Positions 2,436 through 50,354 of a stretch of DNA of 64,000 bases are shown in pieces. This stretch comes from the human T2T-CHM13v2.0 reference genome, Homo sapiens. The position numbers were made by a program, and so were the translations under genes. How positions within the stretch are numbered: position 1 is the first letter of the stretch; every line of letters starts with the position of its first letter. The notes under the pieces were generated by a model. It was not told where the DNA came from and did not search any database. It was given only the letters and a program-made list of their open reading frames with translations. The stretch is from assembly GCA_009914755.4 (NCBI GenBank), contig CP068257.2, positions 10,272,001 through 10,336,000 of the forward strand. Direction: 5' to 3'.

Positions 2436-2512
2436 CTTTATTTCCACTGGATGTCACTCTGTCACTCAAACTGGAGTGCAGTGGCACAATCTTAGCTCAC
2501 ATTTCATTTCAC
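2436..2512 (-). repeat. Alu 3'-end-derived segment (copy 1 of 26) embedded in HSat3
   Basis: ctttatttccactggatgtcactctgtcactcaaactggagtgcagtggcacaatcttagctcacatttcatttcac aligns to the antisense Alu 3' end (TTTTTTGAGACGGAGTCTCGCTCTGTCGCCCAGGCTGGAGTGCAGTGGCGCGATCTCGGCTCAC). CpGs have decayed to CA/TG. Confidence 0.85.
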
Positions 2513-4802
2513 AATTCCATTCCATTCCATTCCATTTCATTCCATTCCTTTCCATTCCATTCCATTCCTTTCCATTCCATTCCACTCTCTTCAACTCCAA
2601 TCCACTACACTCCATTCCACTTCTCTGCATCCCACTCCAGTACACTGGAATCCACTCCAATCCACTCCACTCCATTCCACTACCCTCTACTCCATTCCAT
2701 TCCACTCCATACCACTTCATAACAATCCACTCCAATCCTTTCCACTCCACTCCACTCAATTCCACTGCAATCCACTCCAATCCATTCCATTCCATTCCAA
2801 TCCACTCCATTCCATTCCATTGCATTCCCTTCCAATCCACTCTACTCCATTCAATTTCGTTCCCCTCCAATCCTCTCCACTCCACTCCATTCCACTCAAT
2901 TCCATTCCACTCCACTCAATTCCATTCCATTCTACTCCATTCCACTCCACGCTACTCCACTCCACTCCACTACACTCCACTTAATTTTATTCCATTCCAT
3001 TCCATTCCATTCCATTCCATTCCATTCCATACCATTCCACTCCACTCCACTCCAATCCAATCCGTTCCATTCCACTGCACTCTGATCCACTCCACTCAAC
3101 TCCACTCCATTCCACTTCATTCCATTTGATTCATTGCCACACCCCTCCTTTCCATTCTATTCCATTCCATTCCATTCCATTCCACTGCACTCCTATCCAC
3201 TCCACTCAACTCCCCTCCACTCCACTATTTTCCATTCCATTCCATTCCATTCCATTCCTTTCCATTCCATTCATTTCCATTCCATTCCACGCCACTCCAT
3301 TCCATTCAACTCCATTGAACTCCAATCCACTAAACTCCAATCCAATCCACTCCACTCCACTCCACTACGTTCCACTCCACTACACTCCACTACACTCCAC
3401 TACTCTCCACTCTGTTCCATTCCGTTCCTTTCCATTCCATTCTGTTCTGTTCTGTTACATTCCACTCCATTCCATTCCATTCCACTCCAATGCACTCCAA
3501 TCCATTTCACTGCATTCAACTCCATTCCACTCCACTCCAATCCACTTCACTCCATTCCATTCCGCTCCTTTGCATTCCATTCCACTCCATTCTATTCCAT
3601 TCCATTCCACTCCATTCAACTCCATTCACCTCCACTTCCTTTCTCTCCATTCTGTTCCACTACACTACACTCAATTCCCTTCCATTCCATTCCATTCCAC
3701 TCCATTTCTTTCCATTCCATTCCACTCCATACCACTCCATTCCATTCTATTTCATTCCATTCCACTGTACTCCAATCCACACCACTTGACTCCACTGCAA
3801 TCCACCCCAGTCCGTTCCATTTCGTTTCACTCCTTTCCCTTCCATTCCTCTCTATTCCATTCCACTCCACTCCAATCCAATCCACTCCACTCCTTTCCAT
3901 ACCACTCCATTCCATTCTAGTCCACTCCAATCACTCCATTCCATTGCATTCCACCCCATGCCACTCCATTCCACTCCACTCCATGCCACTGCACTCCATT
4001 CCATTCCAGTCCTCTCCATTACACTCCATTCCATTCCATTCCATTCTATTCTATTCCATTCCATTCCATTCCATTCCATTCCATTCCATTCCATTCCATT
4101 CTACTCTAGTCGGGTTGATTCCTTTCCTTTCACTTCCATTCCATTCCACTCCATTCCATTGTACTCCACCCCATTCCACTCCATTCCATTCCACTCCACT
4201 CCATTCCATTTCATTCCATTCCATTCCATTCCACTGCACTTCCTTCTACTCCACTCAACTCCACTACACACCACTCCATTCAATTTTGTTCCATTCCATT
4301 CCGTTCCATTCCACTTCATTCCACTCCACTACACTCAATTTTACTCCGCTCCATTTCACTCCATTCCACTCCATTCCACTCCACTCCACTCCATTCCATT
4401 CCACTCCACTCCATTCCACTCCTTTCCATTCCATTCCATTCCATTCCATTCCGTTCCATTCCACTCCATTCCACTCTGTTCCATTCCATTCCACTCCATT
4501 CCACTCTGTTCCATTCCATTCCCTTCCACTGCACTCCTATCCACTCGACTCAACTCCACTCCACTGCACTCCACTCCGTTCCACTCCCTTCAATTCCATT
4601 CCGTTGCGTTCCATTCCATTCCATTCCATTCCATTCCACTCCAATCCATTGCATTCCACACCATTCCACTCCACTCCTTTCCCTTCCACTCCTTTCAACT
4701 CCTTTCCACTCCATTCTATTCCATTCCTTTCCACTCCTTTCCATTCCATTCCATTACACTCCACTCCATTCCATTCCATTCCACTCCATTCAATTTGATT
4801 CC

Positions 4803-4878
4803 TGTATTTCGGGTGGATCTCACTCTGTCACACAGAGATTAGTGCAATATCACAATCTTAGCTCACATTTCATTTCAC
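4803..4878 (-). repeat. Alu 3'-end-derived segment (copy 2), most diverged copy
   Basis: tgtatttcgggtggatctcactctgtcacacagagattagtgcaatatcacaatcttagctcacatttcatttcac. Same truncation points as the other copies. Confidence 0.75.
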
Positions 4879-5538
4879 CATTCCATTCAACACCACTCCA
4901 TTACATTCTACTGCACTCTATTCCACTCCACTCCACTCCATTTAACTCCACTCCACTCCACTCCATTCCATTCCATTCCATTCTATTTAATTCCACTGCA
5001 CTCTGATACACTCCACTCAACTCCACTCTACTCCACTCCACTACACTACGTTCCATTCCATTCATTTTCCTTCCGTTCCATTCTGTTCCACTCCAGTCCA
5101 TTACATTCCACTCCACTCCTTTCCAGTCCATTCCATTCCATTCCACTCGACTCCACTCCACTCCACTTCTTTCCATTAAATTCCATTCCATTCCACTGCA
5201 CTCTGATCCACTCCACTCATTTCCACTCCATTTCACTCCACTCTGTTCCGTTCCATTCCAATCTCTTCCATTCCAGTCCATTCCATTCCATTCCACTGAA
5301 TTCTGCTCCATTCCACTCAATTCCATTGCACTCCGTTCCACTCCATTCCACTCTATGTTATTCCAGTCCATTCCTCTCCTTTCCATTCCCTTTCTGTCCA
5401 CTGCATTCAACTCCAGTCCACTCCACTCCATTCCACTCCTCTCCACTCCATTCCACTGCATTCCACTCCACTCCATTCCACTCCTCTCCACTCCATTCCA
5501 CTCCATTCCATTGCAATCCCCTCCATTCCATTCCGTTC

Positions 5539-5617
5539 CTTTATATCGAATGGATCTCACTCTGTAACTCAGACTTAAGTGCAGTGGCACAATCTTAGCT
5601 CACATTTTATTTCACCA
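5539..5617 (-). repeat. Alu 3'-end-derived segment (copy 3)
   Basis: ctttatatcgaatggatctcactctgtaactcagacttaagtgcagtggcacaatcttagctcacattttatttcac. Confidence 0.85.
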
Positions 5618-6184
5618 TTCCATTCCATTCCATTCCATTCCATTCCATTCCATTCCACTCTACTCCATTCAATTCCACTCCATTCCACTCCATGCCACTC
5701 CACTCCTCTTCACTCCACTCCATTCCACTCCATTCCATTCCATTCCACTGAACTCCAATCCACACCACTCAACTCCACTTGACTCCACTCTACTCCATTC
5801 CATTCCGTTTCATTCCTTTCCATTCCATTCATTTCCATTCCACTCCTTTATATTCCGCTCCACTCCATTCTACTCCACTCCACTCCATTCTACTCCACTC
5901 CTCTCCATTCCATTCCATTTCTCTCCACTCCACTTCATTCCGTGCTATTCCATTCCATTCCATTCCATTCCTTTCCCCTTCACTCCATTCCATTCCACTC
6001 CACTCCACACCACTTTACTCCGTTACCTTCCTTTCCATTCAATTCCGTTCCACTCCGTTCCATTCCGTTCAATTCTATTCCGTTCCACTCTACTCCAGTC
6101 CACTCCATTCCGTTTCACTCCATTCCGCTCCATTCCATTCCACTCCACTCCACTCCATTTCATTCTACTCCATTCCATTCCATT

Positions 6185-6262
6185 CCTTTATTTATAATGG
6201 ATCTCACTCTGTCAGCCAGACTGGAGTGCAGTGGCACAATCTTAGCTCACATTTCATTTCAC
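6185..6262 (-). repeat. Alu 3'-end-derived segment (copy 4)
   Basis: cctttatttataatggatctcactctgtcagccagactggagtgcagtggcacaatcttagctcacatttcatttcac. Confidence 0.85.
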
Positions 6263-9200
6263 CATTCCACTCCATTCCATTCCATTCCTTTCCATTCCAT
6301 TCAATCCACGTCACTCCACTCCATTCCATTCCACTCCACTTCACTCCGCTCCACTCAACTCTGCTGCACTCCTTTCCATTCCCATCCACTCCATTCCGTT
6401 CCACTCCATTCCATTCCACTCCACTCCACTCCATTCTATTCCAATCCTTTCTATACAAGTACATTCCACTCCAATTCACTCCACTCCACTCCACTCAACT
6501 CCACTGCACTCCTTTCCATTCCCCTCCACTCCATTCCATTCCACTCCATTCCATTCCACTCCACTCCACTCCATTCTATTCCAATCCTTTCTATACCATT
6601 ACATTCCACTCCACTTCTATCCCTTCCAAGTCACTCCACTCCATTCAACTCCACTCCTTTCAATTACATTCAATTCCACTGAACTCCTTTCAATTCCATT
6701 CCATTCATTTCCATTCCATTCCAAACCATTCCATTCATTTCCATTCCATTGCATTCCATTCCATTCCATTCCATTCCACTGCCTTCCACTCCATTCCATT
6801 CCATTCCAATCCACTAAATTCTATTCCACTCCAATCCACTCCATTCCATTCCAATCCAAACCATTCCATTCCTTTTGATTGCATTCCATTCATTCCACTC
6901 CACTCCATTCCATTCCATTTCACTCCATTTCTTTCCATTCCACACCATTTCATTCCATTCCACTCCACTCCACTCCACACCAATCCACTCCACTGCATTC
7001 CATTCAATTCTGTTCCATTCCATTCCACTCCAGTCCTCTCCATTCCATTCCATTTCAATACACTCCGATCCACTGCACTCAACTCCACTCCATTACACTC
7101 TATCCCGTTCCGTTCCGTTCCATTCCATTCCATTCCATTCAGTTCTGTTCCATTATATTCCATTCCACTCCAATCCATTCCACTCCACTCCATTTCACTC
7201 CTTTCCACTCAATTCTACTCCACATCACTCCAGTCCACTCCATTCCATTCCATTCCATTCCACTCCACTCCACTTCATTCCATTCCATTCAATATTGTTC
7301 CATTCCATTCCACTGCACTCCGATTCACTGCATTGAACTCCAATCCACTCCACTCCACTTGGTTCTGTTCCGTTCTATTCCATTCCATTCCATTCCATTC
7401 CATTCCATTTAATTCCATTCCATTCCACTCCACTCCAGTCCACTCCACTCCACTCCATTCCTCTCCACTCCACTCCATTCCACTTCATTCCTTTCCATTC
7501 CACTGCACTCCAATCCTCTCAACTCCACTCCACCCCACTCTGCTACGTTCCGTTAGTTTCCATTCCATTCTGTTCCATTCCATTCCACCCCATTCCATTC
7601 CACTCCACTCCATCCCACTCCATTTCACTTCACTCCACTCCACTGCACTCAACTCCCCTCCATTCCATACGACTCATTTCCATTCATTTCCACTCCACTC
7701 CATTCCTCTCCATTCCACTCCATTCCACTCCACTCCACTCTACTCCTCTCCATTCCACTCCTCTCCATTCCATTTCATTCCACTCCTCTCTATTCCATTC
7801 CACTCCATTCCATTTCACTCCACTGTACTCCATTCTACGCCACTCCACTCCACTCCATTCCATTCCATTCTACTCCACTCCATTCCATTCCACTTCACTC
7901 CACTCCACTCTATTCCATTCCATTCCACTCCACTCCACTCCATTCCATTCCACTCCACTCTACTCCATTCCATTCCATTACATACCATTCCGTTGCATTC
8001 CATTCCACTTCACTCCACTCCATTCCATTCCATTCCATTCCGTTCCATTCCACTGCACTCCAATTAATTCCACACAACTCCACTCCATTCCACTCCACTG
8101 CACTCCATTCTGTTCTGTTCTATTCTATACCGTGCCATTCCATTCCATTCTATTCCATTCCATTCTATTACACTTCACTGCATTCCATTCCACTCCATTC
8201 CATTCTACTCCAATCCACTCCACTCCACTGCATTCCAGTCCACTTGACTCCACTCCACTTCATTGCATTCCATCCCGTTCCATTCTGTTACTTTCCATTC
8301 CATTCCACTCCACTCCATTTCACTCCATTACACTCCATTCAACTTCACACCACCCAACTCAACTCCACTCCTTTCCATTCAATTCCTCTCCACTCCATTC
8401 CAGTCCATTCCACTGCACTCAGATCCACTGAACGCAACTCCACTCCACTCCACTCTGTTCTGTTCCGTTCCATTCCATTCCATTCCATTCCATTTAATTC
8501 CATTCCATTCCACTCCACTGCATTCCACTCCATTCCATTCCACTCCACTCCTCTCCATTCCACTCCAATCACTTCCATTTCACTGCACTCTGATCCACTC
8601 CAATCAACTCCACTCCATTCCAATCAACTCCACTCCACTCCATTCATGTCCATTCCACTCCGTTTTTTCCCTTCCGTTCCATTGTGTTCCACTCCGTTCC
8701 ATTCCACTCCACTGCATTCCACTCCATTCCTCTCCATTTCACTTCACTCAGCTCCACTTCATTCCATTCCACTCCTCTTCATTCTACTCCATTTCATTCC
8801 ACTCCACTCCACTCCATTCCATTCTACTTCACTCCATTCCATTCAATTCCACTCCACTCCAATCCATTCCATTCCATTCAGTTCCACTCCACTCCATGCC
8901 ATTCCACTACACTCCATTCCCTTCCATTCCATTCCATTCCATTCCATTCCATTCCATTCGAATCCATTCCATTCCATTCCTTTCCATTCCACTGTCCTCC
9001 AATCCACTCCACTCAACTCCACTACACTCCACTACACTCCGTTACATTCCTTTCCATTCCATTCCTTTCCATTGCATTCCACTAAATTCCATTCCATTCC
9101 CCACCTCTACATTGCATTCCATTCCACATCATTCCGTTTCATTCCACTACATTCCATTTCATACCACTAGATTCCATTACATTCCACTACACTCAACTCC

Positions 9201-10287
9201 ACTGCACTCCACTCCACTCCACTCAGTTACATTCCATTCCATTGCATTCTGTTCCTTTCCATTCCAATTCATTCCATTCCAATGCTTTCCACTCCACTCC
9301 ATTCCATTCCACTCCATTCCATTCCTCTCCCCTCCACTCCACTCCTCTCCACTCCAGTCCACTCCACTCTACTGTACTACACTTTGTTCCATTCCGTTCC
9401 TTTCTGTTCTGTTCCATTCCGTTCCATTTCACTCCATTCCATTCCATTGCACTCCACTCCATTCCATTCCATTCCTTTGCTTTCCATTCCATGCCATTCC
9501 ACTGCACTCCAATCCACTCCACTCAACTCCACTCTACTCCACTCCACTCTGTTCTGTTCTATTTCACTCCTTTCTGTTGCATTCCATTCCATTTCATTCC
9601 ATTCCATTAAACTCCACTCCATTCCATTCCATTCCACTCCTCTCCACTCCACTCCACTCCACTCAAATCCACTCCACTACACTCCATTCCACTCCACTAC
9701 ACTCCATTGCATTCCATTCCGTTCAATTCTACTTCACTCCCATCCTCTCCACTCAACTCCACTCCACTCCACTCCATTCAATGCCACCCCACTCGTTTCC
9801 ATTCCATTTAATTCCATTCCATTCCATTCCACTGCACTCCGATTAAGTCCACTCAACTCCACTCCTCTCCGTTCCATTCTGTTCCATTCCATTCCGTTCC
9901 ATTCCATTCCAATCCATACAATTCCATGCCATTCCATGCCCTTCCATTCCATGCAATTCCGTAGTACTCCACTCCACTCCAATCCACTCCAAACGACTCC
10001 ACTGAATTCCACTCCTCTCCTCTCCACTCCACTCCATTCCACTCCGATCACCTCCGCTTCACTCCATTCCACTCCGTTCCATTCTGTTCCATTCCATTTC
10101 CTTCGTTCTGTTCCATTCCACTCCATTCCATTCCTTTCCATTCCACTCCATTCCACTCCACTAAATTCCACTCCACTCCATTCCACTCCTCTAAATTCCA
10201 CTCCACTGCATTCCACTCCACTCCACACCATGTCCCTCTATTCCATTGCACTCCACTTCATTCCATTCTACTCCATTCCATTCCACT

Positions 10288-10366
10288 CCTTTATTTCGAC
10301 TGGATGTTACTCTGCCACTCAGACTGGAGTGCAGTAGCATAACCTTAGCTCATATTTCATTTCACA
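10288..10366 (-). repeat. Alu 3'-end-derived segment (copy 5)
   Basis: cctttatttcgactggatgttactctgccactcagactggagtgcagtagcataaccttagctcatatttcatttcac. Confidence 0.85.
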
Positions 10367-12053
10367 ATTCCATTCCGTTCCATTCCATTTCATTCCATTC
10401 CATTCCATTACACGCTCCTCCACTCCATTCCACTCCACTCCATTCCACTCCACTCCACTGGATTCCACTTAAATCCACTCCACTCCATTCCATTACCCTC
10501 TACTCCATTCCATTCCATTCTATTCCACTCCACTCCACTTCAATCCATTCCACTCCAATCCATTCCATTCTGTTCCATTGCATTCCATTCCACTCCTTTC
10601 CACTCCATTCCATTTCATTCCACTCCATTCCTCTCCACTCCACTCCATTCCACTCAATTCCATTCCACTCCCGTCAATTCCATTCCATTCCACTACATTC
10701 CACTCCACTCTACTCCAATCCACTCCACTACACTCAATTTAATTCCATTCCATTCCATTCCTTTCCATTCAATTCCACTCCTCTCCACTGCATTCCATTC
10801 CATTCCATTCCATTCTATTCCATTGCACTCTGATCCACTCCACTCAACTCCACTCCATTCCCCTCCACTTCATTCCATTCGATTCAATGCCACACCACTC
10901 CTTTCCATTCCATTCCACTCCATTCCTTTCCATTCCATTCCATTCCGTTCCATTCCATTCCTTTCCACTGCACTCCTTTCCACTCCACTCCACTCCTCTC
11001 CATTCCGTTCTGTTCCATTCAATTCCATTCCATTGCATTCCATTACATGCTGTTGAATTCCATTCCATTCCATGCCACTCCATTCCCTTCAACTCCATTG
11101 AACTCCTCTCCACTCCACTAAACTCCCATCCACTCCACTCCACTATGTTCCATTCCACTCCACTCCGTTCCATTCTGTTCTGTTCCATTCCATTCCGTTC
11201 TGTTCTGTTCCATTCCACTCCATTCCATTCCATTCTACTCCAATCCATTTCACTCCATTCAACTCCATTCCACTCCACTCCACTTCACTCCATTACATTC
11301 TGCTCCATTCCATTCCATTCCACTCCATTCTATTCCATTCCATGTCACTCTGTTCAACTCCATTCAGCTCCACTTCATTTCATTCCACTCCATTCCACTA
11401 CATTACACTCCATTCCCTTCCATGCCATTCCATTCCACTCCAATTCATTCCATTCCATTCCACTCCATTCCACTCCACTCCACTGCACTCCAGTCCACTC
11501 CATTGCATTGTGTTCCATTCCTTTCCACTGCACTTCACTCCACTCGACTCCACTCCATTCTGTTCCATTCCATTCCATTCCACTGCACTCTAGTCGACTT
11601 CATTGCATTGTGTTCTATTCCTTTCCACTGCACTCCAATCCACTCCACTCGACTCCACTCCACTCCACTCCGTTCCATTCCATTCCATTCCTTTCCCTTC
11701 CATTCCTCTCCATTCCATTCCACTCTAATCCACTCCACTCCATGCTTTTCCATTCCACTCTCTTCCATTCTATTCCATTCCATTCCATTCCATTCCATTC
11801 CACCCCATTCCAATCCACTCCATTCCACTGCAATCCATTCCATTCCACTCCACTCCATTACACTCCATTCCATTCCATTCCATTCCATTCCATTCCATTC
11901 CACTCCACTCCACTCCATTCCATTCCACTCCATTCCATTCCATTCAACTCCACTACATTCCACTCCACTCCTTTCCACTGCACCCACTCCATTCCACTCC
12001 ATTCCATTCCACTCCACTCCATTCCATTACATTTTATTCCACTGCATTCCATT

Positions 12054-12130
12054 CCTTTATTTCGACTGGATCTCACTCTGTCACCGAAATGGAGTGCAGT
12101 TGCACAAACTTAGCTCACATTTCATGTCAT
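12054..12130 (-). repeat. Alu 3'-end-derived segment (copy 6)
   Basis: cctttatttcgactggatctcactctgtcaccgaaatggagtgcagttgcacaaacttagctcacatttcatgtcat. Confidence 0.85.
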
Positions 12131-12609
12131 CATTCCAATCCGTTCCATTCCATTCCATTCCATTCCATTCCGTTCCATTCCATTCCACTCCACTCCACTC
12201 CATTCCATTACATTCCACTCCACTACACTAAACTCCACTGCCCTCCACTGCAGTCCACTGCATTCCAGTCAACTCCACTCCATTCCACTCCTCTCTGTTC
12301 CATTCCTTTCCATTCCATTCCATTCCTTTCTGTTCCATTCCTCCCCATTTCACTCCATGACATTCCATTCCACTCCAATCCACTCCACTCCACTCCACTC
12401 CATTCCATTAGACTCCATTCTATTCCATTAAACTCAATTCCATTCCATTCCTTTCCACTCCATTCCACTTCATTCTATTCCATTCCAGTGCAGTTCTCTC
12501 CACTCCACTCCATTACACTCCACTCCATTCCTCTCCACTAAACTCCATTTCACTCCTTTGCATTCCACTCCAATGCATTTCATTCCGTTTTAATCCATTC
12601 CATTCCATT

Positions 12610-12690
12610 CCTTTATTTCGACTGGGTCTTACCTTGTCACGCAGACTGGACTGCGGTGGCACAATCTTAGCTCACATTTCATGTTACCTT
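12610..12690 (-). repeat. Alu 3'-end-derived segment (copy 7)
   Basis: cctttatttcgactgggtcttaccttgtcacgcagactggactgcggtggcacaatcttagctcacatttcatgttac. Lies only about 480 bp downstream of copy 6. Confidence 0.85.
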
Positions 12691-22510: not shown

Positions 22511-23034
22511 CCATTCCATTCCATTTCATTCCACTCCACTCCACTCCACTCCACTGAACTCTGTTCCATTCCATACCATTCCATTCCACGCCACTCCATA
22601 CCACTCCATTCCACACCAGTCCACTCCACTCCATTCCACGCCACTCCACTCCACTAAACACCAGTCCACTCCACTCCATTCCCTTACATCCAATCGATTC
22701 CTTTCCTTTCCAGTCCATTCCACTGCACTCCAATACATTGTATGCAACTCCACTCCACTCCACTCTGTTCCATTCTGTTCCATTTCGTTCCATTCTGTTC
22801 CATTCCATTCCAATCAATTCCATTCCACTCCACTCCACTACACTCCAATCCATTTCACTCCGTTCCACTCCATTCCACTCCGCTTTACTAAACTGCTTTT
22901 TATTCCACTCCATTCCACTCCATTCCAATCCACTCCATTCCACTCTATTCCATTCTACTCCACACTACTCCATTCCACTCCATTTCAATCCACTGCACTC
23001 CATGCCATTCCATTCTACTCTGTTCCATTGCATT

Positions 23035-23112
23035 CCTTTATTTCGACTGGATCTCACTCTGTCACCCAGACTGGAGTGCAGTGGCTCAATCTGAGCACAC
23101 ATTTCATTTCAC
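23035..23112 (-). repeat. Alu 3'-end-derived segment (copy 16)
   Basis: cctttatttcgactggatctcactctgtcacccagactggagtgcagtggctcaatctgagcacacatttcatttcac. Confidence 0.85.
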
Positions 23113-24291: not shown

Positions 24292-24370
24292 CCTTTATTT
24301 CGATTGGATCTCACTCTCTCACCCAGATTGGAGAGCAGTGGCACAAACTAAGCTCATGTTTCATTTCACC
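24292..24370 (-). repeat. Alu 3'-end-derived segment (copy 17)
   Basis: cctttatttcgattggatctcactctctcacccagattggagagcagtggcacaaactaagctcatgtttcatttcac. Confidence 0.85.
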
Positions 24371-25145
24371 ATTCCATTCCATTCCATTCCATTCCATTCC
24401 ACTGCACTCTGATCCACTCCACTCCACTCCACTCCACTTTAATCCACTAAGTTCAATTCCGTTCCCTTCCATTCTGTTCTGTTCCGTTCCCTACCCGACC
24501 ATTCTATTCCACTCCACTCCATTCCACCTCACTCCATTTCTCTGCATTACACTCCATTCCATTCCACTCCACTGTACTCCACACCCCTCCACTCCGTTCC
24601 ATTGTATTCCATTACACTCCATTCCATTCCACTGCATTCCATTCCATTTCATTCCATTCTACTCCACTCCATTCCATTCTACTCCACTCCAGTCCATTCC
24701 ACTCCACTCCACTGCACTCTGCTCCACTCCAATCAACTCCATTCCACTCCACTGCACTAAACTCCACTCCAGTCCACTTCATTCCCTTCCATTTCATTCC
24801 ACTACACTCCACTCCATTCCAGTCCACTCCACTCCACTCCACTCCATTCCATTCCATTCCATTCCATTACACTCCACTCCATTCCACTCCACTCCATTCC
24901 ATTCCACTCCATTCCACTCCATTCCATTCCATTCCATCCCATTCCACTGTATTCCAATCCACTCCATTTCACCTCAATCCATTCCACTTCACTCCACTCC
25001 ATTCACTCCACTCCATTTCCTTCCACTCTTCCATTCCATTCTATTCCACTCCATTCCACTCCATTCCACTCCACTCCACTCCATTCCACTCCATTCCATA
25101 CCATTTTATTCCATTCCATTCCATTCTACTCCATTCCATTCCATT

Positions 25146-25222
25146 CCTCTATTTCGATTGGATCTCACTCTGTCACCCAGACTTGTGTGCAGTGGCACAA
25201 TCTTAGCTCACCTTACATTTCA
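25146..25222 (-). repeat. Alu 3'-end-derived segment (copy 18)
   Basis: cctctatttcgattggatctcactctgtcacccagacttgtgtgcagtggcacaatcttagctcaccttacatttcac. Confidence 0.85.
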
Positions 25223-26257
25223 CCATTCCATTCCATTCCATTCCATTCCATTCCATTCCATTCCATTCCATTCCAATCCATGGAAATCCACTCCACTCCA
25301 CTCCACTCCGCTCCACTCCTTTCTATTCCACTCCACCTCGTTCCATTCCATTCTATTCCTTTCCATTTCATTCCATTCCATTCCACTGCACTCCGATCCA
25401 CTTCACTCCATTCAACTCCACTCCATTCCACTCCACTACTTTCCATTCCATTCCATTTCATTCTGTTCCATTCCATTCCATTCTGTTCCATTCCATTCCA
25501 TTCAACTCAACTCCATTCCGTTCCCCTGCATTCCACTCCAATTCACTCCACTCCACTCCATTCCATTCCATACCATTCCATTCCACTGCACTCCTATCCA
25601 CTCCACACAACTCCACTCCACTGCACTCCACTCCACTCCGTTCCATTCCATTCCGTTCCATTTTATTTCTTTCCATTCCATTCCTCTCCATTCCACTCCA
25701 CTTCACTCCACTCCACTCCACTCCATTCCATTCCATTCCATTCCATTCCATTCCATTGCACACCAGTCCCTTCCATTCCATTCCATTCCTTTCCACTCCA
25801 CTCGACTGCAGTCCGTTCAATTAGGTTCCAATCCTTTGCTTTCCATTCCATTCCACTCCATTCCGTTCCACTCCACTCCTTTCTACTCCTCTCTTTTTCA
25901 CTCTATTCCACTCCATTCCACTCTACTCTGCTCCACTGTACTTTACTCCACTCCAATCCACTCCATTCCATTCCATTCCATTCCATTCCATTCCACTGCA
26001 CTCCGATACCCTCCACGCAACTCCACTCCACTCCACTCTTTTCCATTCCGTTCCATTCTGTTCTGTTCTGTTCCATTCCATTCCATGCCATTCAATTCCA
26101 CTCCACTCAACACAATTTCACTCCATTCCACTCCATTCCACTATAGTCTACTGAACTCCATTCCATTCCACTCCATTCCAAACCACTCCACTCCATTCCA
26201 CTCCATTCCATTTCACTCCACTCTATTCAATTCCATTCTACTCCATTCCATTGCATT

Positions 26258-26336
26258 CCTTTGTTTCTTCTGGATCTCACTCTGTCACCCAGACTGGAGT
26301 TCAGTGGCACAATCTTAGAACACATTACATTTCACC
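26258..26336 (-). repeat. Alu 3'-end-derived segment (copy 19)
   Basis: cctttgtttcttctggatctcactctgtcacccagactggagttcagtggcacaatcttagaacacattacatttcac. Confidence 0.85.
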
Positions 26337-27041
26337 ATTCCATTTCATTCCATTCCATTCCTTTCCATTCCACTCCACTCCACTCAACTCCTCTCCATTC
26401 CTGTGCACACCTTTCTATTCCATTCCATTCCATTCTACGGTAATCCAATCCATTCTAATCAACACCACTCCACTCCACTCTGCTCCACTCCGTTCCATTC
26501 CATTCCATTTCATTCCATTCCATTCCATTCCATTGCATTCCATTCCATACTATTCCTTTCCATTCCATTCCATTCCATTCCATTCCACTCTACTCAAATT
26601 CCATTCCACTCCATTCCACTCCACTCCACTACACTCCACTGCAATCCATTCCATTCCATTCCACTGCAAACCACTCCTTTCCATTCCATTCCATTCCATT
26701 CCTTTCCAGTCCTTTACTTTCCATACCATTCCACTCCATTCCATTCCACTCCACTCCTTTCCACTCTTCTCCATTTCACTCCATTCCACTCCATTACACT
26801 CCAGTCCGCTCCACTCCACTCCAATCCACTCCACTACACTCCAGTCCGCTCCACTCCACTCCACTCCACTCCATTCCACTCCATTCCATTCCACTCCAGT
26901 CCATTCCATTCCATTCCATTGCACTCCATTCCATTGCACTCCATTCCATTCCATTCCACTCCATTCCACTCCATTCCAATCCATTCCACTTCAATCCAAT
27001 CCACTACATTCCTTTCGTTTCTACTCCATTTCATTCCATTC

Positions 27042-27118
27042 ATTTATTTCGACTGGATCTCACTCTGTCATCCAGACTGGAGAGCAGTGGCAATATCTTA
27101 GCTCACATTTCATTTCAG
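27042..27118 (-). repeat. Alu 3'-end-derived segment (copy 20)
   Basis: catttatttcgactggatctcactctgtcatccagactggagagcagtggcaatatcttagctcacatttcatttcag. Confidence 0.85.
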
Positions 27119-27911
27119 CATTCCATTCCATTCCATTCCAATCTATTCCACTCCATTCCATTCCATTGCATTCCATTCCACTGCACTCCCATCCACTCCA
27201 CTCAACTCCACTCCACTCCAGTGCACTAAGCTCAATTCCGTTCCCTTCCATTCGGTTGCTTTCCATTCTATACCCAACCATTCTATTCCACTCCACTCCA
27301 TTCCACTCCACTCCACTTCTCTCCATTCCCCTCAATTCCATTCCACTCCACTCCACTCCACTCCATTTCTTTCCATTCCACTCCTTTCCATTCCATGGCA
27401 TTCCATTCCATTTCATTCTATTCCACTCTACTCCATTCGATTCCACTCCATTCCAGTCCATTCCACTCCACTCCACTCCACTCTGCTCCACTCCAGTCAA
27501 CTCCATTCCACTCCACTCCACTTCATTCCATTCCATTCCATTCCATTCCACTGCAGTCCGATCCACTCCACCCAATTCCACTCCACTCCAACCATTCCAT
27601 TCCATTCCGTTCCATTCTATTCCGTTCTGTTCCGTTCCATTCCATTCTACACCATTCCATTCCACTCCACTCCACTCAACTTGACTCCACTCCATTCCAT
27701 TCCACTCCATTCCACTGCATTCCAATCCACTCCATTCCACCTCAATCCGTTCCTCTCCACTCCTCTCTATTCCATTCCTCTCCATTACATTCCACTCCAT
27801 TCCATTCCATTCCACCCCATTACACACCATTCCAATCCACTCCACTCCATTCCAATCCATCCAATTCCATTTTATTCCATTCCATTCCATTCTACTTTAT
27901 TCCATTCCATT

Positions 27912-27990
27912 CCCTTATTTCAATCGGATCTCACTCTGTCACCGAGACTGGAGTGCAGTGGCACAATCTTAGCATACACTACATTTCACC
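27912..27990 (-). repeat. Alu 3'-end-derived segment (copy 21)
   Basis: cccttatttcaatcggatctcactctgtcaccgagactggagtgcagtggcacaatcttagcatacactacatttcac. Confidence 0.85.
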
Positions 27991-28657
27991 ATTCCATTCC
28001 ATTCTTTTCCATTCCATTCCATTCCACTCCACTCCTCTCCACTCCACTCAATTCTGTTCCATTCCATTCCATTCCATCCAATTCCATTCCATTCCATTCT
28101 GTTCCATTCCATTCCATTCCATTCCATTCCATTCCATTCCATTCCATTGCCTTGCATTGCATTCCTTTCCATTGCATTCCATTCCTTTCCATTCCATTCC
28201 ATTCCATTCCACTGCACTCCGGTCCAATCCACTCCACTCCACTACGTTCAGTTCCGTTCCATTCAATTCTGTTCCATTCCATTCCGTTCCATTCTGTTCC
28301 ATTCCTTTCCACTCCCCTCCATACCATTCCACTCTATTCTACTCCACTTCACTCCACTCCACTCCACTCCACTCCACCCCATTCCATTCCATACCATTTC
28401 ATTCCGCTGCACTCCCATCCACTCCACACAACTCCACTCCACTCTGTTCCATTCTGTTCTGTTCCGTACCTTTCCATTCCATTCCACATCATTCCATTCC
28501 AATGCAGTCCATTCCACTCCACTCCATTCCACTCCGTTATACAGCAATCCATTCCACTCCACTCCATTCCACTCCACTCCACTCCATGCCCCACCATTCC
28601 CTTCCACTGCACTCCACTCCACTCCATTCCATTCCATTCTACTCCATTCCATTCCAT

Positions 28658-28736
28658 TCCTTACTTCGACTGGGTCTCACTCTGTCACTCAGACAGGAAT
28701 GCAGTGGCACAATCATAGTTCACATTTCATTTCACC
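28658..28736 (-). repeat. Alu 3'-end-derived segment (copy 22)
   Basis: ccttacttcgactgggtctcactctgtcactcagacaggaatgcagtggcacaatcatagttcacatttcatttcac. Confidence 0.85.
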
Positions 28737-29743
28737 GTTCCAGTCCATTCCATTCCAGTTCATTCCATTCCACTCCAGTCCACTCTACTCCACTCCACTC
28801 TACTCCACTCCACTCAACTCCACTGCACTCCACTCAACTCCATTCTGTTCCGTTCCATTCCTTTCCTTTCCATTGCATTGCATTCCTTTCCATTCCATTC
28901 CATTCCACTCCACTCCACTCCATTCCACTCCGTACCTTCACATTCCACTCCAGTCCTCTCCACTCCACTCTACTACACTCCATTCCACTCCACCACATTA
29001 AACTTCACTCCACTACACTCCATTCCATTCCATTCCATTCCACTGTACTGCGACACACTCCACTCAATTCCAATCCACTCAACTCCACTACACTCCGTTC
29101 CATTCCATTCCATTCTGTTCTATTCCATTCAACTCCATTACACTCCACTGCACTCCACTCCACTCCATTTCACTCCATTCCACTCCATTCCACTGCACTC
29201 CACTCCACTAAACTCTATTCCATTCCACTCCATTTCAGTACATTCCATTCCACTCCATTCCACTCCACTCCATTCCTCTCGATTCCATTCCATTCCTCTC
29301 CATTCCACTCCATTCCACTCCACTCCAATTCCACTCCATTCCACTCCACTCCACTCCACTAAACTCCATTCCATTCCACTCCATGTCAGTCCATTCCACT
29401 CTACTGCATTGCACTACACTCCATTCCATTCCTCTCAATTCCATTCCTTTCCACTCCACTCCATTCCACTCCACTCCACTAAACGCCACTCCACTTCACT
29501 AAACTCCACTCCTCTCGACTCCATACCATTCCATTACATTCCATTACATTCCACTGCAGTCCGATCCACTCCAATCAACTCCACTCCACTCTATTCCACT
29601 TTGTTCCATTCCGTTCTGTTCTGTTCCGTTCTACTGCACTCCATTCCATTCCACTCCACTCTAATCCACTCTACTCCACTCCTTTCCTCTCCGTTACATT
29701 CCACATCACTCCATTCCATTGCATTTTACTCCATTCCGTTCCA

Positions 29744-29822
29744 TTCCTTTATTTAGACTGTATCTCACTTTGTCACCCGTACTGGAGTGCAGTGGCACAA
29801 TCTTAGCTCACGTTTCATTTCA
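29744..29822 (-). repeat. Alu 3'-end-derived segment (copy 23)
   Basis: cctttatttagactgtatctcactttgtcacccgtactggagtgcagtggcacaatcttagctcacgtttcatttcac. Confidence 0.85.
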
Positions 29823-30693
29823 CCATTCCATTTCATTCCATTCCAATCCTTTCCATTCCACTCCGTTCCACTCCACTCCACTGCACTCCAATCTGCTGCA
29901 CTCCACTCCATTCCACTCCACTCCACTGCACTCCAATCCATTCCATTTCACTCTATGCCACTGCTTTCCATTACATTGCATTCCATTTCAATCCTCTCCA
30001 TTCCAATCCATTCCACTCCACTCCAATCCACTCCACTCCACTCCACTTCATTCCATTCCATTCCATTCCATTCCCTTCCACTCCACACCATTCCATTTTA
30101 CTCCACTCCCCTCTACTCCACTCCATTCCATTAAATTCCATTCCACTCCTCTTCATTCCATTCGATTTCATTCCATTCCATTACATTCCAGTCCACAGCA
30201 CTCCTATACACTCCACACCACTCCACTCCACACTACTCCACTCCATTCCATTCCTCTCCACTCCACTCCATTCCATTCCATTCCATTCCATTCCATTCCA
30301 TTCTACTCCACTGCATTCCATTCCATTCCACTCCACTGAAGTCCACCCACTCCATTTCACTCCATTCCACTTCCATCCACTCCATTCCACTCCATTCCAT
30401 TCCACTCCACTCCATTCCATTCCATTTCATTCCATTCCTTTCAATCCCACTCCATTCCACTCCATTTCACTCCACTCCTTCCACTCCTTTCCATTCCACT
30501 ACACTACATTCTCCTCCTTTCCATTCCATTCCTCTCCCTTCCATACCATTCCTTTCCACTCCATTCCACTCCACTCAATTCCATTCCACTCCATTCAATT
30601 CCATTCCACTCCATTACACTCTATTCCACTCTATTCCACTCCATTCCATTCCACTCTTCTCCCTTCCATGAAATTCTACTCCATTGTATTCCA

Positions 30694-30772
30694 TTCCTTT
30701 ATTTCGACTGGATCTCACTCTGTGACCCAGACTGGAGTGCAGTGACAGAATTTTAGCTCACATTTCATTTCA
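30694..30772 (-). repeat. Alu 3'-end-derived segment (copy 24)
   Basis: cctttatttcgactggatctcactctgtgacccagactggagtgcagtgacagaattttagctcacatttcatttcac. Confidence 0.85.
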
Positions 30773-33671
30773 CCATTCCATTCCGTTCCATTTCATTCCA
30801 TTCTATTCCATTCCATTCCATTACACTCCAATCCACTCCACTCCACTCCTTTTCATTCCGTCCGACTCCACTCAACTCCCCTCCGCTTCACTCCACTCCA
30901 CTCCATTCCATTCCACTCCACTCCATTCCATTCCACTCCACTCCGTTACTTTCCTTTCCATTCCAGTCCACTGCACTCCAATCCATTCCTCTCAACCTCA
31001 CTCCAGTTCACTGTTTTCCATTCCGTTCCATTCCATTCCGTTCCATTTCATTCCTTTCCACTCCATTCCAATCCACTCCACTCTACTCCACTGCACTCCA
31101 CTCCATTCCATTCCATTCCGTTCCATTCCATTCCACAGCACTCCGATCCACTCCACTGCACTCCAATCCACTCCACTCCATTCCATTCCACTCCATTCCA
31201 TTACACTCCACTTCCCTCCATTTCAATCCACTCCCTTCCATTCCACTTCACTCCACTCCATTTTACTCCACTCCATTCAATTCCACTTCACTCCACTCCA
31301 TTCCACTCCACTCCATTCCATTCCATTCCTTTCCATGCCATTCCATTCCACTCCACTCCATTCCATTCCACTCCATTCCATTCCACTCCATTCCATTCCA
31401 TTCCATTCCATTCCATTCCATTCCATTCCATGCCATTCCATTCCATGCCATTCCTCTCCACTCCGTTCCACTCCACTCCACATCACTCCACTGGATTCCA
31501 TTTCAGTCCACTCCACTCCATTCCATTCAATTCCATTGCACTCCACTCCATTCCATTGTACTACAGTCCACCCAATTCCATTGTACTACACTCCACTCCA
31601 TCCCATTGTACTACACTCCACTCCATTCCACTGTACTCCACTCCACTCCACTCCACTCCAATCCACTTCGTTCCATTAAATTTCATTCCACTCCACTCCT
31701 TTCCATTTCATTCCATTCCATTCCAGTCCACTGCACTCTGATCCACTCCACTCAACTCCACTCCACTCCACTCCCCTCCACTCCTTTCCATTCCGTTCCA
31801 TTCCACTCCAATCTATTCCATTCCATTTCGTTCCATTCCATTCCATTCCACTGTACTGCATTTCATTCCTCTCCATTCACTCCACTCCACTCCCCTCATT
31901 CCATTCCATTCCATTCCACTGCACTCCAATCAATTCCACTCCACTCCACTCCATTCTATTCCATTCCACTCCATTATATTCCGTTGCACTTCACTCCATT
32001 CCACTCCACTACATTCCATTCCACTCCACTCAATTCCACTCCAATCCACTCCCTTCCGTTCCACTTCACTCAATTCCATTCCACTCCACTCCATTCCATT
32101 CCACTCCACTCCATTCCATTCCATTGCAGCCCATTCCACTCCACTCCATTCCTTTTCATTCCACTCCATTCCATTCCATTCCATTCCATTCCACTCCACT
32201 CCATTCCTGTCCACTCCACTCTACTCCACTCTATTCCCTCCCTCTCCACTCCACTCCACTCCATTCCATTCCATTCCATTCTATTCCATTCCAATCCATT
32301 CCACTGCACTCCATTCCACTCCACTCCAATCTACTCCACTCCACTCCATTCCCTTCCATTTGGTTCCATTCCATTCCTTCCATTCCATTCCACTCCATTC
32401 CTCTCCACTCCACTCCATTCCACTGCATTCTACTCCATTCCCCTCCACTCCACTCCAATGCACTCCACTCCACTCCTTTCCATTCCATTCCATTGCATTC
32501 CACTGCATTCCAATCCACTCCCCTCTACTCCACTACACTCCACTCAACTCCACTCCTTTCCATTCTGTTCCTTTCCGTTCTGTACCGTTTCATTCCATTC
32601 CACTCTATTCCATTCCACTCCACTCCACTCCATTTCACTCCATAGCACTCCATTCCACTGCACTCCACTCCACTCCTCTCCACTCCACTCCACTCCATTC
32701 CATTCCACTCAATTGCATTCCTTTCCATTCCATTCCACTCCATTCCACTAAACTCCATTCCACTCCACTCCACTCCATTATACTATATTCCTCGTCATTC
32801 CATTCTATTCCATTCCATTCCTCTCTATTCCATTTAATTCTTTCCACTCCATTCCACTCCACTCCATTCCACTACACTCCATTCCACTCCACTCCACTCC
32901 ATACCACTCCATTCCATTCCACTCCACTCTATTCCATTTCATTAACTTCCATTCCATTCCATTCCACTACACGCCAGTCCACTCCACTCAACTCACTTCA
33001 CTCCACTCCTTTCCCTTCCATTCCATTCTATTTCATTCCATTCAATTCCATTCCATTCCATTCCACTCCATTCCACTCCACTCCATTCCATTCCATGGCA
33101 TTCTACTCCATTCCACTGCACTCCCTTCCACTCCACTCCATTTTACTCCATTCCATTACTCCACTCCACTCCACTCCATTCCATTCCATTCCGTTCCACT
33201 GCACTCCGATCCACTCCTCTCAACTCCACTCCACTCCACTCTGTTCCATTCCATTCCGTTTCATTCTGTACCATTCTGTTCCATTCCACTCCATTCCATG
33301 CCAGTCCACTCCATTCCATTCCACTCCATTTCACTCCATTCCACTACATTCTACTCCATTCCACCCCATTCCACTTCACTCCATTCCACTCCTCTCCACT
33401 CCACTCCATTCCATTCCACTGATTTGCGTTCCATTCCATTCCACTCATTTCCATTCCATTCCATTCCATTCCTCTCCATTCTACTCCACTCCATTCCATT
33501 ATGCTGCATTCCACTTCATTCCATTCCATTCCATTCGTCTCTATTCCATTTCTTTCCGTTCTGCTCAATTCCACTTTACTCCATCCCAGTACACTCCATT
33601 CCACTCCGTTCCACTGCATTCCATTCCACTCCACCTCATTCCTTTCCACTTTACTCCATTCAATTCCATTG

Positions 33672-33748
33672 CTTTATTTCGATTGGATGTCACTCTGTCA
33701 CCCAGACTGTATTGCAGTGGCACAATTTTAGCTCACATTACGTTTCAC
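33672..33748 (-). repeat. Alu 3'-end-derived segment (copy 25)
   Basis: gctttatttcgattggatgtcactctgtcacccagactgtattgcagtggcacaattttagctcacattacgtttcac. Confidence 0.85.
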
Positions 33749-34091
33749 CATTCCATTCCATTCCATTCCATTCCATTCCATTCCATTCCATTCCATTCCA
33801 CTCCACTCCACACCACTCTACTCCACTCCACTCCATTCCATTCCACTCCATTCCATGCCATTTCATTCCATTCCATTCCACTGCACTCCGATCCACTCCA
33901 CTCAACTGCACTACTCTCCACTCCACTTCATTCCTTTACCTTCCATTCCATTCTGTTCCTTTCCATTCCATTCCACTCTACTCCATTCCATTCCCCTCGT
34001 TCCACTCCAGTCCACTGCACTCCACTCCACTCCACTCTGCTCCACTCCACTCCAATCCATTCCCTTCCATTCTACTGCATTCCATTCGATT

Positions 34092-34170
34092 ACTTTATTT
34101 CAATTGGATCTCACTTTGTCAACCAGACTGTAGTGCAGTGGCAAAATCTTAGCTCACAATGCATTTCACC
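34092..34170 (-). repeat. Alu 3'-end-derived segment (copy 26)
   Basis: tactttatttcaattggatctcactttgtcaaccagactgtagtgcagtggcaaaatcttagctcacaatgcatttcac. Lies only about 420 bp downstream of copy 25. Confidence 0.85.

Positions 34171-48777: not shown

Positions 48778-50354
<1,577 letters not shown>

What the first reader, a model, noticed from the sequence alone, without database searches (positions are those of the whole stretch)
2436..34170. One truncated Alu 3'-end fragment was captured and co-amplified 26 times inside an HSat3 array
The same ~77 bp antisense Alu piece, the A-tail remnant plus about 65 nt of the Alu 3' end, recurs 26 times. Its boundaries are identical every time. On the left it is always ...cattcctttatttcgactgg, and on the right always ...cttagctcacatttcatttcaccattcc. 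Independent Alu insertions would show different truncation points, orientations and TSDs, so this is a single ancient Alu piece that became part of the satellite's amplification unit. The Alu CpGs (GTCGCCC, GGCGCGATCTCGG) have all decayed to CA/TG in every copy (gtcaccc, ggcacaatcttag). That fits long residence in methylated heterochromatin. Copy-to-copy divergence is visibly large, for example copy 2 at 4803-4878, so the amplification is old. The segment is a convenient unique-ish anchor inside an otherwise featureless pentamer array. It works for mapping, read phasing, FISH/oligo probes and dating of array expansion.
Basis: partly seen in the sequence, partly recalled or inferred. Interest (0 to 1): 0.6.

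Follow-up and report, generated by a model that had tools for sequence, protein, structure and literature searches.

The report
Alu tail fragment co-amplified inside HSat3
A short leftover of one ancient Alu jumping-gene insertion was copied along with the surrounding human satellite 3 repeats and now recurs 26 times in this 35-kb array; this is real, but it is an already described and probably functionless feature of human pericentromeric satellites.

Summary
Window 1-35636 is human satellite 3 (CATTC/CACTC pentamers). It carries exactly 26 same-strand copies of a ~77-bp segment between 2438 and 34171. The segment holds 56-58 nt of antisense Alu, corresponding to Alu positions ~225-282. A T-rich remnant of 8-9 nt lies on its left and a fixed non-pentamer flank, ATTTCATTTCACC, on its right. 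Both junctions fall at the same position in every copy.

The same junctions, orientation and truncation point recur in 342 further copies on 120 independent metagenome contigs. These contigs are presumed human contamination. Independent insertions are therefore excluded, and a single capture followed by amplification is strongly supported.

- **CpG loss:** The five Alu CpGs are lost in the shared consensus, so that decay predates amplification.
- **Lineage:** The window copies belong to a derived haplotype. A second haplotype in other contigs is closer to the Alu consensus.
- **No fixed unit:** Spacing runs from 421 to 4103 bp. Copies differ by about 17% pairwise, with no local homogenisation.
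- **Limits on use:** The junction is not locus-specific, and clock dating is unreliable.

T2T papers already report TE and Alu fragments as part of HSat3 repeat units. The finding is ordinary and already known. Subfamily and chromosome could not be assigned.

The parts
1..35636 (+). Host array: human satellite 3, with the CATTC/CACTC pentamer strand on +. It ends directly against alpha satellite at 35636/35637.
   Evidence: 5-mer census: the five rotations of CATTC occur ~2200 times each and those of CACTC ~1700 each. GC skew is about -0.83 up to 34 kb. TRF finds period 5 up to 35626 and period 171/172 from 35637.
2438..2513 (-). Alu-fragment copy 1 (Alu sense is on the minus strand)
   Evidence: nhmmer E=5e-25; alignment
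4805..4880 (-). Copy 2 (14% from consensus)
   Evidence: confirmed by the 100% identical contig L118
5541..5617 (-). Copy 3
6188..6264 (-). Copy 4
10291..10366 (-). Copy 5
12057..12131 (-). Copy 6
12613..12688 (-). Copy 7
14624..14700 (-). Copy 8 (shares an extended right flank with copy 13)
16486..16559 (-). Copy 9
17025..17101 (-). Copy 10
17866..17941 (-). Copy 11
18907..18980 (-). Copy 12 (most diverged, 17%)
20272..20345 (-). Copy 13
21593..21668 (-). Copy 14
22437..22513 (-). Copy 15
23038..23114 (-). Copy 16 (closest to consensus, 4%)
24295..24371 (-). Copy 17 (flanks most similar to those of copy 20)
25150..25225 (-). Copy 18
26262..26337 (-). Copy 19
27044..27119 (-). Copy 20
27915..27991 (-). 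Copy 21
28661..28736 (-). Copy 22
29749..29825 (-). Copy 23
30699..30775 (-). Copy 24
33674..33750 (-). Copy 25
34095..34171 (-). Copy 26

Best explanation
One Alu element became embedded, antisense to the CATTC strand, in an ancestral HSat3 tract. Only its last 56-58 nt plus a short A-tail remnant survived. The loss came either from 5' truncation at insertion or from a later deletion.

This leftover had already lost all its CpGs. It was then carried passively as HSat3 blocks were duplicated, most likely by unequal exchange or replication slippage. Gain and loss of whole pentamers between copies made the spacing irregular. Afterwards the copies decayed independently by point mutation, with little or no homogenisation.

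The window holds 26 members of a derived sub-lineage of this family. The fragment most likely has no function of its own.

Shown here: Alu homology, a single truncation point and orientation, shared CpG loss, two nested haplotypes, 5-bp quantised spacing, star-like divergence, and presence in independent assemblies.

Inferred: retrotransposition as the mode of entry, unequal exchange or slippage as the amplifier, and absence of function.
For: - **Alu origin:** Local alignment to the printed AluSx consensus covers positions 225-288, with score 66 against shuffles at 16.9 +/- 2.1 (maximum 24). 7SL RNA matches over only 41 nt.
- **Single event:** Junctions are the same in all 26 copies. Across the window plus 312 kb of external contigs, no Alu sequence lies 5' of position 224, and 204 of 246 HSPs start at 225. 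All 342 of 342 external copies and all 26 of 26 window copies share one orientation. No other Alu part is present in the window.
- **CpG loss before amplification:** All five ancestral CpG sites read CA in the consensus (TA at the fifth site in the window haplotype, CA in the AGC haplotype), and CG is retained in 2 of 208 copies at one site.
- **Stepwise history:** Three linked sites define two haplotypes. AGC (GACAGG / CAGGCTGG / TCTCAGC) has 48 unique copies and matches the Alu consensus at two of the three sites, and is one CpG step from it at the third. TAT has 133 unique copies, including 23 of the 26 window copies; the other three differ from TAT at one of the three sites. TAT carries three further fixed changes.
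- **Pentamer-step length change:** Spacing is congruent to 2 mod 5 in 112 of 202 intervals (20% expected), and in 96 of 142 intervals shorter than 800 bp. Series such as 672/677/682/687/692/697/702/707 occur between contigs.
- **Co-amplified flanks:** In-register identity exceeds 5-nt-shifted controls from -75 to +110. Pairs c08-c13 and c17-c20 share flanks at 0.83-0.85 identity against a background of 0.74 +/- 0.03.
- **Old, unhomogenised copies:** Copies sit 9.2% from the consensus and 16.7% apart pairwise. Divergence does not correlate with distance (rho 0.01), and adjacent copies are not closer.
- **Real sequence:** Independent contigs match the window at 98-100%.
[quoted passage not shown] Alu fragments are interspersed with HSat3 on Y and the acrocentrics without local homogenisation.
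Against: - No fixed period or higher-order unit is visible. Window spacing is 421-4103 bp. Apart from the ~180 nt around the fragment, all array segments align to each other at only 73-78%, which is the generic pentamer background. Duplication of larger blocks is therefore supported only weakly.
- No unambiguous target-site duplication can be read in a pentamer repeat. Retrotransposition into HSat3, as opposed to another mode of capture, is not demonstrated.
- The T-rich stretch (TTTATTTC or TTTCTTTC) is short. It could be a pentamer variant rather than an A-tail remnant.
- Function was not tested in any way.
Confidence: 0.85

Rival explanations
1. Single capture, but spread by short-tract gene conversion or patch repair into pre-existing HSat3 repeats, rather than by duplication of the blocks that contain the fragment.
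For: Position-specific flank homology extends only ~75 nt to the left and ~25 nt to the right. Spacing is irregular. Core similarity does not track flank similarity (Spearman -0.07 and -0.22, although the ungapped core measure in that call was distorted by indels). Phylogeny is star-like with no neighbour effect.
Against: Pentamer slippage erases register, and therefore detectable flank homology, quickly whatever the mechanism. Spacing quantised in 5-bp steps and multi-fragment blocks with the same spacing series recur in several contigs. Some pairs share extended flanks. Inserting a 62-nt heterology by conversion into pentamer repeats 26 or more times is less parsimonious.
Confidence: 0.1
2. 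Independent Alu insertions into a preferred HSat3 target.
For: None beyond the presence of many copies.
Against: The copies share the same truncation at Alu position 225, the same left junction and the same orientation. They share the same lost CpGs and the same non-CpG substitutions in the consensus. No left monomer or other Alu part occurs anywhere.
Confidence: 0.01
3. The segment is not Alu. It is instead a chance resemblance, an inverted HSat3 piece, or a 7SL RNA-derived piece.
For: Part of it (CTGGAGTGCAGTGG) is the reverse complement of a native HSat3 motif, CCACTGCACTCC, which gives ~31 weak minus-strand profile hits. The Rfam scan found nothing, Metazoa_SRP included.
Against: The 64-nt alignment to Alu scores ~23 sd above shuffles. 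It includes non-pentamer parts (GTGAGCYRAGAT, CTGGGTGACAGAGTGAGA). The 7SL alignment stops after 41 nt, whereas Alu continues through GTGAGCCGAGATCGCGCC. A negative Rfam result is expected for a 56-nt end piece of a ~300-nt structured model.
Confidence: 0.01
4. Reverse causality: the pentamer array grew out of the A-rich tail of an Alu, which would make the Alu the seed of this HSat3 lineage rather than a passenger.
For: The tail remnant runs directly into GGAAT repeats (AAATAAAGGAATGG on the Alu sense strand). That Alu tails can seed microsatellites is established knowledge, not tested here.
Against: Pentamers flank both sides of the fragment in the same orientation. Stretches of 2.4-4.1 kb of the same array lack the fragment. 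From the literature, (CATTC)n satellites are far more widespread than this fragment.
Confidence: 0.02
5. The fragment is retained because it does something. It might act as a protein-binding or RNA-processing island in stress-induced satellite III transcripts, or as a structure-forming inverted repeat with CCACTGCACTCC motifs.
For: The fragment is widespread and persistent (>=342 external copies). It is the only G-containing non-pentamer island in the array.
Against: Copies have diverged 8-28% from each other with no conserved sub-block beyond average. Long stretches of the array lack it, and spacing is irregular. No expression or binding data were examined.
Confidence: 0.03

Closest known systems
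Alu/TE fragments within HSat3 arrays, as reported by the T2T consortium (Altemose et al., 10.1101/2021.07.12.452052; Rhie et al., 10.1101/2022.12.01.518724; both cite or extend Bandyopadhyay et al. 2001 on acrocentric satellite III clones)
   Same: [quoted passage not shown] The window shows exactly this, including the lack of a neighbour effect.
   Different: Rhie et al. label the fragments AluY. Here the 56-58 nt do not resolve the subfamily: the 3' end fits the printed Alu-J better, while another site fits Alu-Sx. Those papers do not describe, in the text I could read, the exact junction, the two nested haplotypes or the 5-bp quantised spacing. I could not establish whether this window is one of their arrays.
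HSat1B / DYZ2, the ~2.5-kb Y-chromosome repeat containing one Alu-derived subunit per unit (Frommer et al. 1984; Rhie et al.)
   Same: A single old Alu piece, about 20% diverged from its consensus, was captured once and multiplied as part of a satellite unit.
   Different: DYZ2 has a fixed ~2.5-kb unit with >98% identity between units and a much longer Alu part. Here there is no fixed unit, only 56-58 nt of Alu, and ~17% pairwise divergence.
Nested tandem repeats (NTRs) of HSat2/3 and composite satellites (Altemose et al.; Hoyt et al., 10.1101/2021.07.12.451456)
   Same: A pentamer-derived satellite organised into longer, irregular units that can include TE-derived pieces.
   Different: Composite satellites are built wholly from TE parts with a defined unit. 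This array is >95% pentamers, and the TE piece recurs at irregular intervals.
[quoted passage not shown] 1992; assigned to HSat3B2 in Table S1 of PMC4022460)
   Same: HSat3 directly abuts alpha satellite, as at window 35636/35637. The reported unit of 1483 bp is close to intervals of 1483/1487 bp seen in external contigs.
   Different: This is only a lead. The most common HSat3B2-specific 24-mer is absent from the window, and no Table-1 24-mer of any subfamily matches it exactly.

Membership tests
Alu SINE (as a derived fragment) | Sequence homology to the Alu consensus, above chance | tested here: met
   Alignment to AluSx positions 225-288 scores 66, against shuffles at 16.9 +/- 2.1. With AluSx as query there are 246 HSPs over the window and external contigs.
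Alu SINE (as a derived fragment) | Dimeric structure (left and right monomers, A-rich linker, Pol III A/B boxes) | tested here: not met
   No match to left-arm sequence in the window. No Alu HSP starts before position 224. This is a fragment, not an element.
Alu SINE (as a derived fragment) | 3' A-tail | tested here: inconclusive
   An 8-9 nt T-rich stretch lies on the + strand next to the Alu 3' end: TTTATTTC in the window and TTTCTTTC in the AGC haplotype. It is too short and too pentamer-like to be certain.
Alu SINE (as a derived fragment) | Target-site duplication flanking the insertion | tested here: inconclusive
   ATTTC lies on both sides (TTTATTTC|...|ATTTCATTTC). Any two in-phase flanks in a pentamer repeat look alike, so this cannot be scored.
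Alu subfamily (J / S / Y) | Diagnostic positions | tested here: inconclusive
   The AGC-haplotype 3' end, GAGATCCTGTC, is 1 mismatch from the printed Alu-J (GAGACCCTGTC) and 3 from Alu-Sx (GAGACTCCGTC). However, GTGAGCTGAGAT fits Alu-Sx (GCCGAGAT) better than the printed Alu-J (GCCGTGAT). From my own knowledge, S and Y are identical over this stretch.
Human satellite 3 (HSat3) | Long array derived from (CATTC)n pentamers, strand-asymmetric | tested here: met
   5-mer census, GC skew of -0.8, TRF period 5.
HSat3 subfamily (A1-A6, B1-B5 of Altemose 2014) | [quoted passage not shown] | tested here: inconclusive
   Only the single most common 24-mer per subfamily (Table 1) could be tested. There were 0 exact matches in the window and 3 matches of the HSat3A4 24-mer in the external contigs. 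The stored part of the full 24-mer list held none of the six Alu-fragment and junction sub-strings I searched for.
Satellite with a TE-derived subunit / nested tandem repeat | The TE piece recurs in tandem, in one orientation, with the same junctions, as part of the repeated DNA | tested here: met
Satellite with a TE-derived subunit / nested tandem repeat | A defined unit length | tested here: not met
   Spacing is 421-4103 bp in the window and 135-4457 bp in external contigs. Self-BLAST shows only background identity of 73-78%.

The most novel reading that the evidence does not exclude
The ancestral state of this fragment is known, because it is the Alu consensus. It could therefore serve as an internal reporter of a mutational regime peculiar to HSat3 heterochromatin. 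Four observations point that way:
- All five CpGs decayed in the same strand direction (C>T on the Alu sense strand, which is G>A on the G-poor CATTC strand).
- Post-amplification changes show Ts:Tv of 78:104, well below what I recall as the usual ~2:1.
- Divergence is too high for the age of Alu under euchromatic rates.
- 'Allelic' contigs differ from the window by up to 2%.

If these reflect a strand-asymmetric, transversion-rich and several-fold faster mutation process in HSat3, that would be of some interest. Alternatively, the fragment might have a role in satellite III transcripts.
Probability: 0.1. Interest if true: 0.4.

Novelty: already known. Interest (0 to 1): 0.12.

Why it matters
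It matters little beyond bookkeeping. The finding is a clean textbook illustration that satellites amplify whatever lands in them. It also shows that HSat3 evolves by whole-pentamer gain and loss with little homogenisation.

On the practical side, individual copies differ by 8-28%, so they do give locally unique markers for read placement inside an otherwise low-complexity array. The junction itself, however, is shared by many HSat3 blocks, and the Alu part is shared by over a million Alus. It is therefore not a locus-specific probe. It also cannot be dated with a euchromatic clock.

The fragment turns up readily as human contamination in metagenome assemblies, which is a useful caution for metagenomics.

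Tried and rejected
- **Rfam scan.** An E-value-threshold scan of 20000-31000 (11 copies) gave no hit, Metazoa_SRP included. This is uninformative for a 56-nt end piece.
- **Search for a fixed unit.**
  - Ungapped register analysis loses signal beyond ~100 nt because of indels.
  - Self-BLAST gives only 73-78% background identity everywhere.
  - The landmark motif CCACTGCACTC..ATCCACTC occurs 92 times, every ~390 bp, and is not positioned relative to the fragment. A first fuzzy-regex attempt at this motif failed technically.
- **Subfamily and chromosome assignment.** The Table-1 subfamily-specific 24-mers of Altemose 2014 give no exact hit in the window. The stored part of their 24-mer dataset contains none of the six Alu-fragment and junction sub-strings I searched for. 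The dataset does not use the subfamily labels I searched for.
- **Genome-contig scan** for the junction: 0 hits.
- **Literature not held.** Choo et al. 1990 (PMC332295) is not in the library, and Bandyopadhyay 2001 and Vissel 1992 could not be read. Whether their clones carry this exact fragment is unknown.
- **Hierarchical clustering** of all copies lumped 195 of 208 into one cluster. Classification by three linked diagnostic sites was informative instead.
- **Core-versus-flank correlation** used ungapped cores and is distorted by indels in five copies. It was recomputed on the alignment.
Full report
**What the window is.** Positions 1-35636 are human satellite 3.
- The five rotations of CATTC occur about 2200 times each and those of CACTC about 1700 times each.
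- GC skew is about -0.83, and TRF reports period 5 up to 35626.
- At 35636/35637 the array abuts divergent alpha satellite directly. This has a 171/342-bp period with ~79% matches, and it runs to the end of the window.
- The alpha satellite is interrupted by two L1 pieces and contains a strand switch.

**The observation.** The segment is present as described.
- A 49-mer from its core matches 10 times at <=3 mismatches, against 0.00 expected.
- blastn-short with the 88-nt consensus finds 26 plus-strand copies at 87-96% identity.
- A profile built from the copies (nhmmer --max) recovers exactly the same 26, with E from 2e-26 to 2e-20. It finds no partial or degenerate copies. It finds none in 1-2430, in the fragment-free stretches 6265-10284 and 30776-33667, in 34172-35636, or in the alpha satellite.
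- A MAFFT alignment of all copies with 60-nt flanks crosses both junctions in a single register, apart from isolated 1-2 nt indels in a few copies. The boundaries are therefore at the same position in every copy.
The left 20-mer and the right 28-mer each occur exactly only four times. The 78-nt k-mer proposed for database searching has no exact occurrence even in this window.

**Is it Alu?** The Rfam scan was silent, as expected for a short end piece of a structured model. I therefore took consensus sequences printed in papers: ALU-J and ALU-Sx from PMC5218400 and 7SL RNA from PMC3395682.
- The reverse complement of the 26-copy consensus aligns to AluSx positions 225-288 with score 66. Shuffles give 16.9 +/- 2.1, with a maximum of 24.
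- The printed Alu-J scores 56, but that sequence lacks one base, which costs a gap.
- 7SL aligns over only 41 nt.
- The Alu-derived body is GAC...GCTCAC, 56 nt on the + strand. An 8-9 nt T-rich stretch precedes it. The next 13 nt (ATTTCATTTCACC) are not Alu.
- No other Alu part exists in the window.
- The subfamily cannot be resolved from 56 nt. One diagnostic site favours the printed Alu-J and another favours Alu-Sx.

**Related sequences elsewhere.** Instead I used the right junction, with one degenerate position, to scan public contigs.
- The scan found nothing in bacterial and archaeal genomes.
I take these to be human contamination, a phenomenon Rhie et al. describe specifically for HSat3.
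- The 120 contigs total 312 kb and hold 342 profile hits.
- Some contigs match the window at 98-100%. L118 is 100% identical over 2422 bp, covering the diverged copy 2, and L085 is 99.4% identical over 3660 bp. The window sequence is therefore not an assembly artefact.
- Most other contigs match only at the ~75% pentamer background, so they are different HSat3 blocks carrying the same fragment.
- All 342 external copies have the window's orientation relative to the CATTC strand.
- With AluSx as query against everything, 204 of 246 HSPs begin at Alu position 225 and none begins before 224.

Independent insertions are thereby excluded, and a single capture is supported well beyond this window.

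**History that can be read from the copies.**
1. All five ancestral CpG sites inside the fragment read CA on the + strand in the shared consensus, in 158-188 of 208 unique copies; at the fifth site CA is the state of the AGC haplotype (56 copies) and most copies carry the further-derived TA. CG survives in 2 of 208 at one site. CpG decay therefore happened in the founder, before amplification.
2. The one CpG present in the consensus (TCGA at the tail/body junction) is the most variable site: CG 113, TG 38 and CA 29 of 208. That fits ongoing decay of methylated CpG after amplification.
3. Three linked sites define two haplotypes.
   - AGC (GACAGG, CAGGCTGG, TCTCAGC) has 48 unique copies, all external.
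   - TAT (GACTGG, CAGACTGG, TCTTAGC) has 133 unique copies, including 23 of the 26 window copies; the other three differ from TAT at one of the three sites.
   - AGC is the state closer to the Alu consensus at every site. For example, CTCGG > CTCAG > CTTAG explains the apparent double change.
   - The window therefore belongs to a derived sub-lineage. Amplification was stepwise.
4. Window copies are 9.2% from their consensus (range 3.8-16.7%) and 16.7% apart pairwise (range 7.7-28%). Divergence does not correlate with physical distance (rho 0.01), and adjacent copies are not more similar (0.163 against 0.168). The phylogeny is star-like without local homogenisation, as Rhie et al. reported for HSat3-Alu fragments.

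**How it spread.** There is no fixed unit.
- Intervals are 421-4103 bp in the window and 135-4457 bp in external contigs.
- Self-BLAST of the array gives only 73-78% identity everywhere.
- Position-specific flank homology above 5-nt-shifted controls extends only from about -75 to +110 relative to the segment start. It includes a conserved CATTCTACTCC about 20 nt upstream.
- Intervals are strongly quantised. They are congruent to 2 mod 5 in 112 of 202 cases, and in 96 of 142 intervals under 800 bp. This matches a non-pentamer insert of 62 nt plus whole pentamers.
- The same multi-fragment blocks recur in different contigs with intervals that differ by multiples of 5, such as 672, 677, 682 ... 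707.
- A few window pairs (c08-c13, c17-c20) share flanks at 0.83-0.85 identity against a background of 0.74 +/- 0.03, with matching neighbour offsets.

I infer passive co-duplication with surrounding blocks, followed by pentamer slippage or unequal exchange. Spread by short-tract conversion is not excluded, and I give it about 0.1.

**Entry mechanism (inferred).** The T-rich stretch next to the Alu 3' end fits an A-tail remnant, and hence retrotransposition. In a pentamer repeat, however, a target-site duplication cannot be scored. The internal break at Alu 225 could be a 5' truncation or a later deletion.

**Dating.**
- From my own knowledge, a rate of ~1e-9 per site per year would put 9.2% divergence from the consensus at ~90 Myr. 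That exceeds the age of Alu itself.
- The founder was already diverged from the Alu consensus at several non-CpG positions before amplification.
- So either the substitution rate here is several-fold above the euchromatic rate, or the consensus is not the founder.

**What is known.**
[quoted passage not shown] 2001 for satellite III.
- Rhie et al. describe HSat3 blocks intermingled with Alu fragments on Y and the acrocentrics. They find clustering across chromosomes and no local homogenisation.
- HSat1B/DYZ2 is the classical case of an Alu piece inside a satellite unit.

The finding is thus a correct rediscovery of a described phenomenon. The exact junction, the nested haplotypes and the 5-bp quantisation may not have been spelled out in print. 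They are details rather than a new kind of thing.

**Subfamily and chromosome.** I could not assign either.
- The Table-1 subfamily-specific 24-mers give no exact hit in the window.
- The stored fraction of the full list held none of the six fragment and junction sub-strings I searched for.
- HSat3 contiguous with alpha satellite on chromosomes 13/14/21 (HUMASAT3, assigned to HSat3B2, 1483-bp unit) is a lead only.

**Verdict.** The secondary claims on CpG timing, unit structure, anchor specificity and dating are corrected above. Interest is low.

Noticed in passing
window 35636/35637: The HSat3 array abuts divergent (monomeric/dimeric, ~79% matches) alpha satellite directly, with no transition sequence...CCACTGCACTCCA|ATCTTCACATAAAATG....
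   Followed up: partly
window ~36410-37583: A 5'-truncated L1 3' end is inserted antisense into alpha satellite, with a T-rich tail at its left end.
   Followed up: no
window ~48775-50355: A composite L1 insertion in alpha satellite. An antisense 3'-end piece (~48775-49280) is joined to a sense-oriented ORF2 piece (~49281-50355). The same alpha-satellite words, CTGAGAAACTTCTTTGTGATGTG, lie on both sides. It looks like a single insertion with a target-site duplication and an internal inversion (twin-priming-like), although the two pieces are not adjacent in L1.
   Followed up: no
window ~52222/52223: The alpha satellite switches strand here, an inversion breakpoint. Forward-orientation words occur only before this point and reverse-orientation words only after it. 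The GC skew changes sign.
   Followed up: partly
window 1-35636, e.g. 11480-11495, 12255-12270, 29878-29895: The native HSat3 motif CCACTGCACTCC(A/G) is nearly identical to the Alu sense sequence GCCACTGCACTCCAG. It gives ~31 weak minus-strand hits of the fragment profile. Each antisense Alu piece therefore forms a 12-16 bp inverted repeat with nearby satellite motifs. This may be coincidence, or it may be relevant to how the piece was captured or retained.
   Followed up: no
the 26 copies, window 2438-34171: Substitutions relative to the consensus show 78 transitions against 104 transversions (Ts:Tv 0.75), well below what I recall as the usual ~2:1. G and C sites change about 1.8 times as often as A and T sites. 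The counts are of cells, not independent events.
   Followed up: no
consensus of all copies (window + L001-L120): All five ancestral Alu CpGs decayed in the same strand direction: CG>CA on the + strand, which is C>T on the Alu sense strand. The two-sided chance is 1/16, so this is suggestive only. It removes G from the already G-poor strand.
   Followed up: partly
L001-L120 (metagenome contigs): HSat3 with this Alu junction is a common contaminant of metagenome assemblies. Contigs that match the window at full length range from 100% down to ~98% identity and differ by pentamer-sized indels. That is high for allelic variation, so they may be acrocentric paralogues.
   Followed up: partly
L035 1000-2300, L013, L113, L086, L063: Some external HSat3 blocks carry the ancestral-like (AGC) form of the fragment at much denser spacing (about 160-450 bp) and with lower profile scores. 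These blocks may be older or differently organised arrays of the same family.
   Followed up: partly
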